Positions 56,123-60,723 are shown, counted from the stretch's first letter. The stretch is 64,000 bases of DNA from an uncultured Croceitalea sp. (GCF_947495075.1 NZ_CANLXH010000004.1), one strand, 5' to 3'. Made by a program: numbers and translations. The notes: a model not told the origin generated them from the sequence alone.

Positions 56123-57316
56123 ATGCCAACAATTTCATTGAAAGGAAGTAAAATGCCTTCCTCTCCTATTCGAAAACTAGTTCCTTTTGCTGAAACAGCT
56201 AAAAAAAGAGGTATCCATGTAATACATTTAAATATTGGGCAACCAGATATTAAAACTCCCAAAATTGCCTTAGATGCTGTAAGGAATAGTAAAATAGAAG
56301 TTTTAGCATATAGCAGAACTGAGGGGTCTGAAGAATACCGAAATAAAATAGCTGGTTATTATGGTAAACATAATCTAAATATAGAATCTAGTGATATTAT
56401 CGTAACTACAGGTGGGTCAGAAGCACTGTCATTTGCAATGGGCAGTATTTTAGATGAAGGTGACGAAGTTATTATTCCGGAACCTTTCTATGCTAATTAC
56501 AATGGTTTTGCGACTGCAAATGGCGTTAATGTTGTTCCCATAGTTTCTAAAATAGAAGAAAATTTTGCGCTTCCATCAATAGCTGAATTCGAAAAATTAA
56601 TTTCGCCAAAGACAAAAGCAGTACTAATCTGTAACCCTGGCAACCCAACAGGTTATCTGTATACAAAAGAAGAAATTAACCAATTAGCTAAATTGGTTAA
56701 AAAACATAATCTTTTTCTTATCGCAGACGAGGTTTACCGCGAGTTTGCATATGATGATAAAGAGCATCATTCACTATTAAGTGTTTCTGGCTTAGAAGAC
56801 AATGCCATAGTAATCGATTCTGTATCCAAAAGATACAGCATGTGCGGGGCTCGAATAGGTTGCTTGGTTTCAAAAAATAAGGAAGTCATACAAACCACAT
56901 TAAAATTTGCACAGGCAAGGTTATCACCGCCAACTTTAGCTCAAATAGCTAGTGAAGCCGCTTTAGAAACACCACAAAGTTATTTTGATGATGTAATTAA
57001 AGAATATGTTTCTAGGCGAAATTTATTGATTGAAGAACTTCAAAAAATTGAAGGTGTAAAAGTCGCTCAACCAAATGGAGCTTTTTATTGTGTGGTAGAG
57101 CTTCCTGTTAAAGATTCAGATGATTTTGCCCAGTGGTTGTTAGAATACTTTAATATTGATGGAGAAACCGTGATGGTTGCTCCTGCAGCCGGTTTCTATG
57201 CTTCAGAAGGTCTTGGAAACAACCAAATACGTATAGCATATGTACTCAAGAAGGATCAACTAAAAAAAGCAGTGCAAATTCTGTCTGAAGGTTTAAAACA
57301 ATATCACAATTCGTGA
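56123..57316 (+). CDS. Class I/II PLP-dependent aminotransferase (AspC-like)
   Basis: LNIGQPD, TTGGSEA, NPGNPTG, DEVY.EF, SKRYSMCGARIG. Confidence 0.9.
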   Translation: MPTISLKGSKMPSSPIRKLVPFAETAKKRGIHVIHLNIGQPDIKTPKIALDAVRNSKIEVLAYSRTEGSEEYRNKIAGYYGKHNLNIESSDIIVTTGGSEALSFAMGSILDEGDEVIIPEPFYANYNGFATANGVNVVPIVSKIEENFALPSIAEFEKLISPKTKAVLICNPGNPTGYLYTKEEINQLAKLVKKHNLFLIADEVYREFAYDDKEHHSLLSVSGLEDNAIVIDSVSKRYSMCGARIGCLVSKNKEVIQTTLKFAQARLSPPTLAQIASEAALETPQSYFDDVIKEYVSRRNLLIEELQKIEGVKVAQPNGAFYCVVELPVKDSDDFAQWLLEYFNIDGETVMVAPAAGFYASEGLGNNQIRIAYVLKKDQLKKAVQILSEGLKQYHNS

Positions 57317-58329
57317 ATATTCAAGAAAACATTTCTCTTAAGGCATACAATACTTTTGGTATTGCAGCTAATGCTAAATTCTTTTTAGAAGTTAATAGCC
57401 TACTACAATTACAAAAGGCTTTACAATTGTCCGCATATCCAGAAAAGTTTATCATTAGTGGTGGTAGTAATATGCTACTAACAAAAGATATTAATGCGCT
57501 GGTACTACACATTAACCTAAAAGGAGTTTCAGTCTTTGAAGAGGAGGAGAATTCTGTTATAATTAAAGTTATGGCTGGTGAAAACTGGCATAAATTGGTA
57601 TTATGGACTTTATATTATGACTATGGTGGTTTAGAGAACCTCTCTTACATTCCTGGTAATACGGGAACTGCTCCTATACAAAATATTGGGGCTTATGGGG
57701 TTGAATTAAAAGATGTGTTTGTTAGTTGCGAGGCCATGGACATACAAACACAGGAGCTCAAAGAATTTACTAAGGAAGATTGCAAATTTGGTTATAGGGA
57801 TTCAATATTCAAAAACGAAGCAAAAGGAAAATATATTATTACATCAGTCAAACTAAAGTTAACGAAGAACAACCATAAATTACATACTTTTTATGGAGCT
57901 ATTGAACAAGAATTAGCAAAAAATAGTATTATTCATCCAACAATTAAAGACGTGTCAAACGCAGTAATAGCCATCAGGAAAAGTAAATTACCAAACCCTA
58001 AAGAAATTGGGAATAGTGGAAGTTTCTTTAAAAATCCTGTTGTATCTAAAAAAGTCTTTGAAGCTCTTAAGAATAAAAATTCTGATGTGCCTTTCTATGA
58101 AATTGAAAATAAAACTTTTAAAATACCTGCTGGTTGGCTTATTGAGCAATGCGGCTTTAAAGGCAAACGCTTTGGGGATGCTGGAGTTCACCAAAAGCAA
58201 GCATTAGTTCTAGTAAACTATGATAATGCATCTGGAGAGGAAATTTTAAACTTATCAGAAAAGATTCAGGAAGCTGTGTTTGATAAATTTAAAATTAGAA
58301 TTATCCCGGAAGTAAATATAATAAAATAA
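57313..58329 (+). CDS. murB: UDP-N-acetylenolpyruvoylglucosamine reductase
   Basis: GTG start; GGSN.L, GLENL..IPG..G.APIQNIGAYG, GNSGSFFKNP, QALVLVN. Confidence 0.96.
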   Translation: MNIQENISLKAYNTFGIAANAKFFLEVNSLLQLQKALQLSAYPEKFIISGGSNMLLTKDINALVLHINLKGVSVFEEEENSVIIKVMAGENWHKLVLWTLYYDYGGLENLSYIPGNTGTAPIQNIGAYGVELKDVFVSCEAMDIQTQELKEFTKEDCKFGYRDSIFKNEAKGKYIITSVKLKLTKNNHKLHTFYGAIEQELAKNSIIHPTIKDVSNAVIAIRKSKLPNPKEIGNSGSFFKNPVVSKKVFEALKNKNSDVPFYEIENKTFKIPAGWLIEQCGFKGKRFGDAGVHQKQALVLVNYDNASGEEILNLSEKIQEAVFDKFKIRIIPEVNIIK

Positions 58330-58463
58330 CCCCCGATTTCTTGAGAGAAAAACGAGGGTTATACCAAACCAAACTAACCAAAAATTTATATACGTTTTAA
58401 CTATTATTCTTTTAAAAAACTAAAACACACCGTAATAATCAATTTCTTACTTTAGCGTTTGTA
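58321..58463 (-). ncRNA. Candidate ECF-dependent small RNA (about 140 nt)
   Basis: No ORF; AATCC-N16-CGTA upstream, terminator downstream, UUUUGGUUAGUUUGGUUUGG just before the hairpin. Confidence 0.4.
58325..58362 (-). terminator. Hairpin with U-rich tail on the minus strand, at the murB stop
   Basis: TAACCC...TTTCT/AGAAA...GGGTTA; the minus strand continues TTATTTTAT. Confidence 0.55.
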
Positions 58464-58467
58464 TATA

Positions 58468-58492
58468 TACGGTAAGAATCATTTTTTGGATT
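58468..58492 (-). promoter_or_regulatory. ECF-type promoter pointing away from the sigma gene
   Basis: AATCC (58492-58488), 16 nt, CGTA (58471-58468). Confidence 0.45.
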
Positions 58493-58525: not shown

Positions 58526-59089
58526 ATGAGCACACTACTTGAAAAACACATTGTAGAATTATTACAAGATCGTGACGAAAAAGCAATTTCATTACTTTAT
58601 GACAATTATGGAGACACCTTATATGGGGTAGCATATAAAGTTGTAAAAGACGAGAATTTAGCTCAAGATGTTGTACAAGAAAGTTTTATTAAAATTTGGA
58701 AGAAATCTGATTCTTATGATGCAACCAAAGCAAAATTATTTACATGGTTATTTAGAATAACTAGAAATACAGCAATAGACAAATTAAGAAGTGTAAACAC
58801 AAAAGCGGATAAGGAAATCCAAATAGACGTTTCAGACGTATATAATTTAGGTGAGCGAGGCATTATGCCAGAATTAATGGATGTTAAGGAAAACCTTGAT
58901 AAAATTGAATCTAAATACAAAATTGTCCTCGAAGCCTTGTTTTTTGAAGGAATGACCCAGCAAGAAGCCAGCGATGAGCTAGATATTCCTCTGGGTACCA
59001 TCAAGTCACGATTAAAAATTGGACTTCGTGAATTACGTAAAATATATGGCACCTCTATGGTGTTAGCAATAGCAATAAGTGTTTTGTAA
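58526..59089 (+). CDS. ECF RNA polymerase sigma factor (SigK-like)
   Basis: AQDVVQESFIKIW, FTWLFRITRN.AID.LR, IPLGTIKSRLK. Confidence 0.93.
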   Translation: MSTLLEKHIVELLQDRDEKAISLLYDNYGDTLYGVAYKVVKDENLAQDVVQESFIKIWKKSDSYDATKAKLFTWLFRITRNTAIDKLRSVNTKADKEIQIDVSDVYNLGERGIMPELMDVKENLDKIESKYKIVLEALFFEGMTQQEASDELDIPLGTIKSRLKIGLRELRKIYGTSMVLAIAISVL

Positions 59090-59847
59090 TGAAAGAAAAG
59101 ATTAAAATATTTTTAGACTCGGACCTACTAGAAAAATATCTTTTAGGGTCAACTTCTACTGAAGAATCACTCCAAGTAGAGCGCTATATCGCTATGCATC
59201 CAGAAGTAAGAGAAGCTTATAATGAGCTACAGGAAAACTTGGAAACTTTTGCCAAAATGCATGCTTTAAAAACCCCCGAAGGTTTAAAAGAGCAAATTCT
59301 ATTCAGAATAAAGCAAGAAAAACGTAGTAGAAGTAAATTCTACAAATTTGCTGTAGCTGCAAGTATCGCTGCTTTAATTTTTGCAGGTGCAAGTTATTTC
59401 TTCTATAATCAAAACCAGAGTTTACAACAAGAAAACTCAATAGTTACTAACAAAATAAAAGATCTTGAGATGGATATGAAAATTCAACTCGAAGATATTA
59501 GAAACCAATATATAGTCCTTAATAACCCAAATACAAGAAAATATAATGTAAATGGTAATAAAAAAGCAGAGGACTTAAAAGCAGTAGCTTACATAAATCC
59601 AGTAAAAAAATTGTCTTACATAAATGTAAGCAATCTTCCTCAACTTCCTGAGGATAAGTGTTTCCAAATGTGGTCAGAGGTAAATGGCAAAATGGTAAAC
59701 CTTGGTGTTATCAAACAATTCGATAATAAAGAACAGTTATTAGCTTTACCATATGCTGATAATGCCGTTGGTTACATTACCATAGAACCTCAAGGTGGTA
59801 ATGAAACCCCCACAGTTAAGAACATAGTCGCCAACATCAATTATTAA
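59089..59847 (+). CDS. Anti-sigma factor (RskA-like)
   Basis: 1-nt overlap with the sigma gene; LLEKYLLG, single TM, LP.LP..K.FQMW, ITIEP.GG...PT. Confidence 0.88.
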   Translation: MKEKIKIFLDSDLLEKYLLGSTSTEESLQVERYIAMHPEVREAYNELQENLETFAKMHALKTPEGLKEQILFRIKQEKRSRSKFYKFAVAASIAALIFAGASYFFYNQNQSLQQENSIVTNKIKDLEMDMKIQLEDIRNQYIVLNNPNTRKYNVNGNKKAEDLKAVAYINPVKKLSYINVSNLPQLPEDKCFQMWSEVNGKMVNLGVIKQFDNKEQLLALPYADNAVGYITIEPQGGNETPTVKNIVANINY

Positions 59848-59920: not shown

Positions 59921-60121
59921 ATGAAATTGATTCTTCTAACAATAGGCCTACTTGGATTAGCTTTTGCTGGAATCGCGATTAAGATTTGGTCGAAAAAAGA
60001 TGGTAAGTTTGCTGGCACTTGTGCAAGTCAAAATCCTTTTTTAAATAAAGATGGAGAAGCTTGTGGGTTTTGCGGTAAATTACCAGACGAGCAAGACTGT
60101 AAAAAAGATGCAATTGTATAA
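59921..60121 (+). CDS. Small membrane protein with four cysteines
   Basis: 66 aa, one TM, C34-x13-C48-x2-C51-x8-C60. Confidence 0.75.
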   Translation: MKLILLTIGLLGLAFAGIAIKIWSKKDGKFAGTCASQNPFLNKDGEACGFCGKLPDEQDCKKDAIV

Positions 60122-60159: not shown

Positions 60160-60723
60160 TTGAATAAACTCAAAGAGGACTTACAAGAAAATATTGGTAA
60201 AGCAAAAGCAGGCAGCCAAATTGCTTTTAGCTTGTTACTAAATACTTTTTGGAATGAAGTCTATCACTTTCAATTGGCGAGAACCAAAAATGAAAATGAT
60301 GCTGAGGATATTACAATACAAACTTTTTCAAAAGCATTTGACAAAATAAAAACCTATGATGATTCTTATGAGTTTAAAACATGGCTAATCACCATCTCAA
60401 AGAACTTACATGTTGATCTTATTAGAAAAAGAAAACGAAATATTTTAGATGGTTTTGAAAATAGTTCATCAGAAGCGGTTAAAAAAGTTGTAGACGAATC
60501 TCCCACTGTTGAAGATCAGCTAATTATAGAACAAAACTTAGCCTCTTTACTATCGCATATAAAAAAGCTGAAACCGCATTATCAAAAAGTTATAAACCTG
60601 CGTTATTTTAATGAGTTAACTTATGCTGCCATAGCAAAAGAGTTAGATGAGCCTGTAAATAATGTAAAAGTTAAATTACTAAGGGCAAAAAAACTTCTCG
60701 CCGAAATCATTAAGGGTAAGTAA
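60160..60723 (+). CDS. ECF RNA polymerase sigma factor (orphan)
   Basis: TTG start; AEDITIQTFSKAF, FKTWL.TI..N..VD..RK, VKVKLLRAKK. Confidence 0.9.
   Translation: MNKLKEDLQENIGKAKAGSQIAFSLLLNTFWNEVYHFQLARTKNENDAEDITIQTFSKAFDKIKTYDDSYEFKTWLITISKNLHVDLIRKRKRNILDGFENSSSEAVKKVVDESPTVEDQLIIEQNLASLLSHIKKLKPHYQKVINLRYFNELTYAAIAKELDEPVNNVKVKLLRAKKLLAEIIKGK

What the first reader, a model, noticed from the sequence alone, without database searches (positions are those of the whole stretch)
58321..58492. Candidate ECF-sigma-driven small RNA with a UUGG-repeat seed, divergent from the sigma/anti-sigma pair
Seen: the 196-nt murB-sigma spacer has no ORF. The minus strand reads AATCC-N16-CGTA, about 100 nt of U-rich sequence containing UUUUGGUUAGUUUGGUUUGG (58384-58364), then a hairpin with a UUAUUUUAU tail. 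The tail is better on the minus strand than for murB. AATCATTTTTT also repeats at 58477 and 58500. Known: ECF promoters have this -35/16-17 nt/CGT-type -10 layout, and enterobacterial sigma-E acts through sRNAs (MicA, RybB). Inference: the adjacent ECF transcribes an sRNA that pairs with A/C-rich (AACCAAAC/AACUAACC) translation-initiation regions. That would suit a phylum that relies on A-rich leaders rather than Shine-Dalgarno sites.
Basis: partly seen in the sequence, partly recalled or inferred. Interest (0 to 1): 0.75.

Follow-up and report, generated by a model that had tools for sequence, protein, structure and literature searches.

The report
ECF-sigma-driven small RNA beside murB
The gap between murB and a SigK-like stress sigma factor gene holds an undescribed ~140-nt small RNA gene, conserved across many marine Flavobacteriaceae genera and sitting behind a promoter that recurs inside the sigma gene itself, so it is very probably the RNA arm of that sigma factor's small regulon.

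Summary
The 196-nt murB–sigma spacer has no ORF. Its minus strand reads ATCCAA-N14-CGTATATA, then about 140 nt ending in UUUUUGGUUAGUUUGGUUUGGUAUA, a hairpin and a U-run.

- **Conservation.** The 20-mer seed is exact in 58 of 401 family genomes and in 78 of 80 named relatives (Croceitalea, Maribacter, Zobellia, Arenibacter, Flagellimonas, Cellulophaga and others). It always lies between murB and the same ECF sigma.
- **Structure and strand.** Three stem-loops covary (95.8% paired, 11 compensatory pairs). G·U pairs (41, against 3 A·C) put the RNA on the minus strand.
- **Link to the sigma.** The same promoter sits inside the sigma ORF, held at synonymous sites in every ortholog, where it would drive the RskA-type anti-sigma. 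It also precedes a conserved 295-aa membrane protein. A TGTA variant precedes a fasciclin gene, which parallels mycobacterial SigK→mpt70/83.
- **Targets.** None is proven. Seed-complementary words (AACUAACC, AACCAAAC) peak 1–40 nt upstream of start codons, but the candidate sites tested were not clearly conserved.
- **Limits.** The tool that finds RNA-seq runs was closed, so there is no expression evidence. The RNA matches nothing in Rfam.

Verdict: a new ECF-dependent sRNA family.

The parts
58318..58460 (-). Predicted sRNA transcript, about 140 nt. The 5' end is inferred 6-8 nt downstream of the CGTATA box. The 3' end is inferred in the U-run after the terminator, overlapping the last codons of murB in antisense.
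   Evidence: Conserved promoter and terminator bracket it. Window MFE is -29.3 kcal/mol, z = -2.3. Ends are not mapped experimentally.
58486..58491 (-). -35 box ATCCAA of the sRNA promoter
   Evidence: ATCCAA (or ATCTAA / GTCCAA) in 36/36 loci, 14-15 nt from CGTA; present in 78/80 named relatives.
58464..58471 (-). -10 box CGTATATA of the sRNA promoter (ECF-type CGT box)
   Evidence: CGTA invariant in 36/36. The spacer sequence varies but keeps a TT 6-7 nt upstream.
58427..58458 (-). Stem-loop 1: ACGCU/GGUGU outer stem (two G·U pairs in this genome), with the conserved loop AAAUUGAUUAUUA
   Evidence: Per-sequence folds; RNAalifold and pair counts on 14 genera.
58361..58384 (-). Single-stranded seed UUUUUGGUUAGUUUGGUUUGGUAU. 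The core GGUUAGUU survives even in diverged versions.
   Evidence: Invariant in 16/16. Exact in 58/401 family genomes and 78/80 named relatives. Variant seeds in G366, G078, G131 and G108 keep GGUUAGUU. Unpaired in the consensus structure.
58328..58360 (-). Intrinsic terminator hairpin; the U-run 58327-58318 overlaps the murB stop codon
   Evidence: Compensatory changes and U·G wobbles. More stable on the minus strand in 35/36 loci. Scan hit only on the minus strand.
58817..58844 (+). Second copy of the same promoter (ATCCAA-N14-CGTATATA), embedded in codons 98-106 of the sigma ORF and pointing at the anti-sigma gene
   Evidence: One of only 3 strict genome-wide hits and the top PWM score, 39.8. 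Codons ATC, CAA, GAC, GTA and TAT have zero synonymous variation in 36 orthologs, while the spacer codons vary. Present in 19/20 distant orthologs and 79/80 named relatives.
58526..59089 (+). ECF sigma factor, SigK-like, 187 aa
   Evidence: Pfam Sigma70_r2 and r4. Best NCBIfam hits include SigK but fall below the cut-off. Ortholog in 228/401 family genomes.
59089..59847 (+). Anti-sigma factor with an RskA C-terminal domain
   Evidence: Pfam PF10099 RskA_C, 2.7e-13.
57313..58329 (+). murB, convergent with the sRNA. Its last codons supply the sRNA's U-tail in antisense.
   Evidence: ORF list; synteny in 36/36 distinct loci.

Best explanation
The spacer encodes a trans-acting small RNA of about 140 nt on the minus strand. 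It is transcribed from an ECF-type promoter (ATCCAA-N14/15-CGTATATA) that the adjacent SigK-like sigma factor recognises once it is released from its RskA-type anti-sigma.

The RNA has a 5' stem-loop with a conserved AAUUGAUU loop. In most genera it has a second stem-loop with a CUGGUNA loop. Then come an unpaired, invariant 3' seed (UUGGUUAGUUUGGUUUGG, core GGUUAGUU) and an intrinsic terminator.

The same promoter inside the sigma ORF would raise anti-sigma synthesis, which is negative feedback. It also drives a conserved 295-aa membrane protein and, in a TGTA variant, a fasciclin protein. The regulon is therefore tiny, and the sRNA is its post-transcriptional arm.

The seed most likely pairs with A/C-rich leaders (AACUAACC, AACCAAAC) just upstream of start codons and blocks initiation.

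Shown here by comparative evidence:
- the conserved RNA structure and its strand;
- the promoter motif and its recurrence at the sigma locus and at the other conserved genes.

Inferred:
- that this sigma reads the motif;
- the exact transcript ends;
- the mode of action and the targets.
For: - **Conservation and synteny.** The spacer is found in 14/15 same-genus genomes. The seed is invariant. It is exact in 58/401 family genomes spread over dozens of genera and in 78/80 named relatives. The order murB–element–sigma holds in 36/36 distinct loci.
- **RNA and strand.** The terminator covaries. Three helices are 95.8% paired with 11 compensatory pairs, 0/500 shuffles reach the observed values, and slid controls give 35-50%. 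There are 41 G·U cells against 3 A·C cells. The minus strand folds better in 35/36 loci. Paralogous seed-plus-terminator modules on the UUGG strand occur in the 3'UTR of a small secreted-protein gene in two other genera, and at two further loci in other genera.
- **Promoter.** Both boxes are conserved with variable spacer sequence. The motif is unlike the Bacteroidetes sigma-A TAnnTTTG box. Only 3 strict hits exist in 3.7 Mb, with PWM scores of 39.8, 32.2 and 27.0 and the next at 15.6.
- **Link to this sigma.** The internal copy is fixed at synonymous sites. Five codons have zero codon entropy, against a mean of 0.76 over 130 codons. It is also present in distant orthologs that lack the sRNA. 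In G050 and G310 the divergent promoter drives a fasciclin gene (Pfam 2.8e-35; G310 read by eye only). The genome's own fasciclin gene and its orthologs carry ATCCAA-N14-TGTAnnTA. M. tuberculosis SigK controls the fasciclin genes mpt70/mpt83 (PMC4105308, PMC9861118).
- **Targets.** AACTAACC/ACTAACCA gives 15 occurrences in the -40..-21 bin, against 2.4 expected from composition (p = 9e-9 against a uniform spread over the 20 bins). AACCAAAC/CCAAACCA gives 16 in the -20..-1 bin. Seed-sense controls are flat. ACTAACCA ranks 3rd of 280 same-composition words.
Against: - The TSS and 3' end are predictions.
- Attribution of the promoter to this sigma rests on location and on the regulon analogy, not on an assay. 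A second ECF sigma lies 1 kb downstream.
- Duplex-energy screening of 3248 crude start regions exceeded controls only mildly.
- The tested candidates did not hold up. The MurA site is not conserved. The ABC-2 site lies in an upstream ORF's conserved C-terminus. The POT gene has no orthologs. The Amt site is conserved in only about a third of the orthologs whose start could be located.
- The G/U-rich strand would fold somewhat better than its complement regardless of function.
- Gene starts used for the enrichment test came from a crude ORF caller.
Confidence: 0.7

Rival explanations
1. The RNA acts mainly in cis as an antisense regulator. murB transcripts that read through the poor plus-strand terminator into the sigma gene would be perfectly complementary to the sRNA. 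Sigma-dependent sRNA synthesis would then trigger cleavage or termination of the read-through mRNA and feed back on sigma expression.
For: The hairpin has no U-run on the plus strand. In relatives without the sRNA, murB and sigma are only 54-67 nt apart and are probably co-transcribed. The sRNA overlaps the murB 3' end.
Against: A cis role does not need an invariant 20-nt block while the rest of the RNA drifts. It also does not explain copies of the same seed plus terminator at unrelated loci, such as the 3'UTR of a small secreted-protein gene. The two roles are not mutually exclusive.
Confidence: 0.12
2. The UUUGG/UUAG repeats are a protein-binding platform rather than a base-pairing seed. 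The RNA would then be a sponge or cofactor for an RNA-binding protein.
For: Four tandem U-rich pentamers ending in G(G), with extreme invariance across a whole clade. No conserved mRNA target was found. Bacteroidetes lack obvious Hfq/ProQ (PMC7366714).
Against: Complementary words show a sharp, strand-specific peak just upstream of start codons. Diverged seeds keep GGUUAGUU but not the repeat pattern. No candidate protein was identified.
Confidence: 0.08
3. A real sRNA, but its promoter is read by a different alternative sigma, for example the second ECF at 60160-60723 or one encoded elsewhere, and not by the adjacent SigK-like factor.
For: No biochemical assignment exists. Flavobacteria carry many ECFs with overlapping CGT-type -10 boxes (PMC9723704).
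Against: The motif is embedded in this sigma's own ORF in every ortholog, including lineages without the sRNA. It sits divergently next to it. In some genera it drives a fasciclin gene, matching the known SigK regulon.
Confidence: 0.08
4. Not an RNA gene. The conserved blocks are DNA-level signals: the murB terminator plus operator or promoter elements for the sigma operon.
For: The spacer lies upstream of a regulated operon. A Bacteroidetes sigma-A type -7 box for the sigma gene overlaps the region in some genera.
Against: Helices covary with G·U pairs that fit only one strand. The seed is always followed by a hairpin and U-run, including at paralogous loci with no sigma gene nearby.
Confidence: 0.02

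Closest known systems
Sigma-E/ECF-dependent sRNAs: MicA, RybB and MicL of enterobacteria (background knowledge), and Pos19 of Rhodobacter sphaeroides
   Same: A small RNA with its own ECF-type promoter, a conserved unpaired seed and an intrinsic terminator, forming the repressor arm of an envelope or stress sigma regulon.
   Different: No sequence relation. The phylum has no Shine-Dalgarno use and no Hfq. The sigma is SigK/RskA-like. The seed is at the 3' side just before the terminator. Targets are unknown. The gene sits next to its sigma gene.
Rfp18 of Flavobacterium psychrophilum (PMC9723704)
   Same: A flavobacterial sRNA whose predicted seed UUUUGGUUGG pairs with AACCAACC(AAAA) around start codons. 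Its seed word is nearly identical to UUUUGGUUAG here.
   Different: Rfp18 is driven by a sigma-A promoter, lies at another locus and has a different architecture. A profile of the present family scores Rfp18 at -3.4 bits, rank 132 among 2000 shuffled copies, so it is not a detectable homolog.
Rfp31 and Rfp74 of F. psychrophilum (PMC9723704 supplement)
   Same: Small transcripts assigned to an ECF-type (CGT -10) promoter class in a flavobacterium.
   Different: Their -35 is GTAAC/ACAAC-like (motif SM6). They have no UUGG seed, are not next to a sigma gene, and no function is known.
Mycobacterial SigK–RskA system and its mpt70/mpt83 regulon (PMC7509140, PMC4105308)
   Same: An ECF sigma with an adjacent RskA-type anti-sigma, a very small regulon, fasciclin-domain proteins as targets, and a sigma-dependent promoter at the sigma locus.
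   Different: The sigma here has no cysteines, whereas the SigK redox pair is a family hallmark. It scores below NCBIfam's SigK cut-off. The autoregulatory promoter lies inside the sigma ORF. An sRNA is part of the regulon.
GibS of Bacteroides thetaiotaomicron (PMC7366714)
   Same: A Bacteroidetes trans-acting sRNA that pairs through a conserved single-stranded region with translation-initiation regions, without Hfq.
   Different: GibS has a 5' seed, a different sequence, regulation and phylogenetic range, and is not ECF-linked.

Membership tests
ECF-sigma-dependent trans-acting sRNA (MicA/RybB/Pos19 kind) | Promoter matches the cognate ECF's recognition motif | tested here: met
   ATCCAA-N14/15-CGTATATA is conserved. 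The same motif occurs inside the sigma ORF, before a 295-aa gene and, as a TGTA variant, before a fasciclin gene. The cognate motif is itself inferred, not assayed.
ECF-sigma-dependent trans-acting sRNA (MicA/RybB/Pos19 kind) | Transcript exists and depends on the sigma factor | not testable with these tools
ECF-sigma-dependent trans-acting sRNA (MicA/RybB/Pos19 kind) | Defined non-coding transcript with an intrinsic terminator and conserved structure | tested here: met
   No ORF. The terminator is on the minus strand only. Covariation is shown.
ECF-sigma-dependent trans-acting sRNA (MicA/RybB/Pos19 kind) | Conserved unpaired seed that base-pairs with target mRNAs | tested here: inconclusive
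   The seed is invariant and unpaired. Complementary words peak upstream of start codons. No conserved target was confirmed.
Any Rfam 15 family | Covariance-model match at or near the gathering score | tested here: not met
   Best hits were PyrR at 20.3 bits (gathering score 54) and SpR20 at 17 bits (gathering score 45), with E-values above 1.
Rfp18 family (F. psychrophilum) | Detectable sequence homology over the RNA | tested here: not met
   nhmmer profile of alignment A2 against Rfp18 gives -3.4 bits, rank 132 among 2000 shuffles. Only an 11-nt seed word aligns.
SigK/RskA ECF system (ECF18/19 type) | ECF sigma with an adjacent RskA_C-domain anti-sigma | tested here: met
   Pfam Sigma70_r2/r4 and PF10099 RskA_C.
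SigK/RskA ECF system (ECF18/19 type) | Score above NCBIfam's SigK model cut-off | tested here: not met
   NF007228 scores 105 bits against a cut-off of 226.
SigK/RskA ECF system (ECF18/19 type) | Conserved cysteine pair in the sigma (94% of ECF18 and 56% of ECF19 per PMC7509140) | tested here: not met
   The 187-aa sigma sequence contains no cysteine.
SigK/RskA ECF system (ECF18/19 type) | Fasciclin-domain proteins in the regulon | tested here: met
   The divergent promoter drives a fasciclin gene in G050 (Pfam 2.8e-35) and apparently in G310 (read by eye). The genome's own fasciclin ortholog and four relatives carry ATCCAA-N14-TGTAnnTA. This is promoter prediction only.

The most novel reading that the evidence does not exclude
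The sRNA arose from the promoter and 5' leader of a SigK-regulon fasciclin gene that once lay divergent to the sigma gene, an arrangement still seen in G050 and G310. It now acts as a broad translational brake. Its invariant seed would recognise A/C-rich leader words (AACUAACC at about -40 to -21, AACCAAAC at about -20 to -1) that serve many Flavobacteriaceae mRNAs as start-site context in place of a Shine-Dalgarno sequence. One ECF signal could then damp a whole class of mostly secreted and outer-membrane protein mRNAs. The same seed module has been copied into 3'UTRs of other genes.
Probability: 0.15. Interest if true: 0.85.

Novelty: new member of a known kind. Interest (0 to 1): 0.7.

Why it matters
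RNA regulation in Bacteroidota is poorly charted. Few sRNAs have known regulators, and I know of none tied to a defined ECF regulon.

This work gives a family-wide sRNA with a precise predicted promoter. It also gives a three- to four-member regulon for a SigK-like sigma and an unusual autoregulatory promoter written into the sigma's own coding sequence.

All of this can be tested directly in culturable marine model strains of Zobellia, Maribacter and Cellulophaga.

The invariant seed, and the positional peak of its complement upstream of start codons, offer a handle on how mRNAs are selected for translation control in a phylum that does not use Shine-Dalgarno pairing.

Tried and rejected
- **Rfam.** No family matched.
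- **Literature.** No paper in the library contains the seed sequence. Veyrier 2008, which describes the SigK binding site, is not held. The ECF-classification supplements are not held.
- **Genome-wide duplex scan.** A k-mer prefiltered scan timed out. A duplexfold screen of 3248 crude start regions gave only mild excess over reversed and shuffled seeds, so its top list was not trusted.
- **Candidate targets.**
  - POT transporter: no orthologs in relatives.
  - ABC-2 permease: the site is the LTKN C-terminus of the upstream ORF.
  - MurA: the site is not conserved.
  - Amt: a partial, weak lead.
- **False pattern hits.** The recurring 2-mismatch hit AACCAAACCAACCTAACCAA is the antisense of the amt codons for LGWFGFNGG, not an sRNA or a target.
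- **Plus-strand ECF reading.** AATCAA...GCGTT as an autoregulatory promoter was rejected. Its spacing is 2 nt shorter, and those bases are the two arms and loop of stem-loop 1.
- **AATCATTTTTT repeat.** Not conserved.
- **Rfp18 homology.** Rejected.
- **Covariance-model search.** Not run, because pattern and protein searches already defined the distribution.

Full report
**Observation.**
murB ends at 58329 and an ECF sigma ORF starts at 58526. The 196-nt spacer has no credible ORF.

On the minus strand I read, in order:
- ATCCAA at 58491-58486;
- 14 nt of spacer;
- CGTATATA at 58471-58464;
- about 80 nt of A/U-rich sequence;
- UUUUUGGUUAGUUUGGUUUGGUAU at 58384-58361;
- a hairpin at 58360-58328;
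- AUUUUAUUAUAUUU, which overlaps the murB stop codon.

The terminator scan reports the hairpin only for the minus strand. Rfam finds nothing: the best hit scores 20 bits against a gathering score of 54. The AATCATTTTTT repeat is real but not conserved.

**Conservation.**
- The spacer is recovered in 14 of 15 same-genus genomes and in one other genus.
- Its length is held at 183-202 nt, and TTATACCAAACCAAACTAACCAA is invariant in 16/16 while the flanks drift.
- The 20-mer is unique in this genome.
- It is exact in 58 of 401 sampled family genomes from dozens of genera. The reversed-pattern control never gave more than one ≤2-mismatch hit per strand in any genome.
- In all 36 distinct loci examined the order is murB, element, then the same sigma, whose protein starts MSTLLEKHIVELL.
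- A scan of named genomes puts the window in Croceitalea.
- The clade comprises Croceivirga, Maribacter, Arenibacter, Kriegella, Flagellimonas/Muricauda, Zobellia, Cellulophaga, Aurantibacter, Poritiphilus, Eudoraea and others.
- Of the 80 best sigma loci, all 80 have the seed (78 exact), 78 have the divergent promoter and 79 have the internal promoter.

**It is an RNA, and it is on the minus strand.**
- The terminator stem shows compensatory changes: C-G, U-A, A-U, G-C, plus U·G.
- On 14 genera, RNAalifold gives three stem-loops and leaves the seed unpaired.
- Pair counting gives 95.8% paired cells and 11 of 29 pairs with changes on both sides. No shuffle out of 500 reaches any measure, and slid controls give 35-50%.
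- The pair table holds 41 G·U/U·G cells but only 3 A·C/C·A cells. The helices therefore work only on the UUGG strand.
- The minus strand folds better in 35/36 loci, with mean -37.5 against -28.3 kcal/mol. Part of that gap is expected from G/U richness alone.
- Independent support comes from other genera. The same seed followed by an unrelated hairpin and U-run occurs at other loci. Twice it lies directly after the stop codon of a ~106-aa secreted protein gene, that is, in a 3'UTR.

**Promoter and its sigma.**
Across 36 loci the boxes (G)CATCCAA and CGTATATA are conserved, 14-15 nt apart. The spacer varies apart from a TT 6-7 nt before CGTA. This is an ECF-type layout, not the Bacteroidetes TAnnTTTG box.

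A strict pattern has only three hits in the 3.7-Mb genome. A weight-matrix scan scores them 39.8, 32.2 and 27.0, with the next site at 15.6.

- **Inside the sigma ORF (58817-58844, + strand).** Among 130 codon columns with a conserved amino acid (mean normalised codon entropy 0.76), the only columns with zero entropy are:
  - Ile98, ATC in 35/35;
  - Gln99, CAA in 36/36;
  - Asp104, GAC in 34/34;
  - Val105, GTA in 36/36;
  - Tyr106, TAT in 34/34.

  The spacer codons Asp101 and Ser103 vary freely. This is the signature of a DNA signal written into coding sequence. The site would transcribe the anti-sigma gene. It is present in 19 of 20 more distant orthologs, including genomes with a 54-67-nt murB–sigma gap and no sRNA.
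- **Before a 295-aa protein.** The third site lies about 63 nt upstream of a conserved membrane/coiled-coil protein of 295 aa. The site is conserved in 20 of 22 orthologous loci from 18 genera.
- **Fasciclin link.**
  - In G050 the divergent promoter drives a fasciclin gene instead of an sRNA (Pfam 2.8e-35).
  - In G310 it apparently does the same, although I read that ORF only by eye.
  - This genome's best fasciclin homolog carries CATCCAA-N14-TGTAAATA.
  - Close orthologs in four other genomes, one of them of the same genus, carry the same variant.
  - M. tuberculosis SigK, which has an RskA anti-sigma, controls the fasciclin genes mpt70/mpt83 (PMC4105308, PMC7509140, PMC9861118).

The sigma here has σ2/σ4 domains and an RskA_C anti-sigma partner. 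It lacks the SigK cysteines and scores below NCBIfam's SigK cut-off. I therefore call it SigK-like, not SigK.

Taken together, the motif is most economically this sigma's own. That assignment remains an inference.

**Distribution and evolution.**
- The sigma ortholog is in 228/401 family genomes.
- The roughly 72 with 73-86% identity are almost exactly the genomes that carry the canonical seed.
- Intermediate lineages (G366, G078, G131, G108) have diverged sRNAs. Their seeds keep only GGUUAGUU.
- In G240, G048 and G342 the promoter and a terminator bracket a different short sequence.
- Other lineages have no divergent promoter at all.

murB–sigma synteny and the internal promoter are therefore older than the sRNA.

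**Mode of action (inferred).**
- A duplex screen of crude start regions was only mildly above controls.
- Word counts are more telling.
  - AACTAACC/ACTAACCA occur 15 times in the -40..-21 bin, against 0-6 in the other bins and 2.4 expected from local composition. The p-value is 9e-9 against a uniform spread over the 20 bins.
  - AACCAAAC/CCAAACCA occur 16 times in the -20..-1 bin.
  - Seed-sense controls are flat.
  - ACTAACCA ranks 3rd of 280 same-composition words.
- Carriers of these words include SusC-like receptors, very large secreted proteins, Amt and NupC.
- Conservation tests did not confirm a target.
- F. psychrophilum Rfp18 has a near-identical seed word predicted to pair with AACCAACC at start codons (PMC9723704). 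It is not a detectable homolog.
- A cis-antisense effect on murB→sigma read-through, and a protein-binding role, remain possible.

**Limits.**
No expression data were available. Transcript ends, sigma dependence and targets are all predictions. It is not independent evidence, and I re-derived its claims here.

**Verdict.**
This is a well-supported, undescribed sRNA family. It very probably belongs to a compact SigK-like ECF regulon, and it has an unusual promoter embedded in the sigma coding sequence. It is a new member of a known kind.

Noticed in passing
window 58817-58844 (+), inside the sigma ORF: A promoter motif identical to the sRNA's is embedded in codons 98-106 of the sigma gene and fixed at synonymous sites in all orthologs. 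The first in-frame ATG downstream (MPELMDVK..., 74 aa) would encode a sigma-4-only polypeptide ahead of the anti-sigma gene.
   Followed up: yes
outside the window: G000 C1:1303807-1303833 (-), gene about 63 nt downstream: A 295-aa protein with an N-terminal TM segment and a coiled coil, 71-94% identical across 18 genera, with no Pfam or NCBIfam family. It carries the same conserved promoter. One ~27%-identical paralog exists per genome.
   Followed up: partly
outside the window: G000 C5:46879 onward (173-aa fasciclin protein): CATCCAA-N14-TGTAAATA lies 85 nt upstream, conserved as a TGTA -10 variant in four related genomes. It is probably a fourth, weaker regulon member.
   Followed up: partly
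L087 (G212:C1) and L094 (G304:C14); also L086 (G248:C14) and L089 (G213:C2): Extra copies of the seed (UUUUUGGUUAGUUUGGUUUGAAA) with their own terminators. Two sit in the 3'UTR right after a ~106-aa secreted protein ending ...DAEGNWLEM.
   Followed up: partly
window 59921-60121 (+) and 60160-60723 (+): A 66-aa membrane protein with a Cys-rich tail (C..C..C..C), followed by a second ECF sigma whose NCBIfam hits include the GFO_1088/PG0214 family (below cut-off), directly downstream of the anti-sigma gene.
   Followed up: no
amt genes of many family genomes (e.g. L038); G000 C1:318817-320118 (-): The amt codons for LGWFGFNGG read UUAGGUUGGUUUGGUUU, almost the sRNA seed in sense. This produced recurrent 2-mismatch pattern hits. 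The glnK–amt spacer also carries AACUAACCAA or CCAACCAAC words about 20-30 nt before the amt start in several genera.
   Followed up: partly
L148 (G240), L152 (G048), L153 (G342): At the same murB–sigma position, the conserved divergent promoter and a terminator bracket a different short sequence (UGAUUAAUAGCnUUUUC) with no GGUUAG seed. This may be another sRNA or a relic of a gene leader.
   Followed up: no
L137, L139, L141, L154, L136, L155 (plus strand upstream of sigma): A conserved TTAATTAATAnnTTTG, a Bacteroidetes sigma-A -7 box, faces the divergent ECF promoter. The sigma mRNA and the divergent transcript would then overlap at their 5' ends.
   Followed up: no
window 59051-59089 (sigma C-terminus): The sigma ends in a hydrophobic tail (GTSMVLAIAISVL) whose last codons overlap the anti-sigma start codon. 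This is unusual for a soluble ECF sigma.
   Followed up: no
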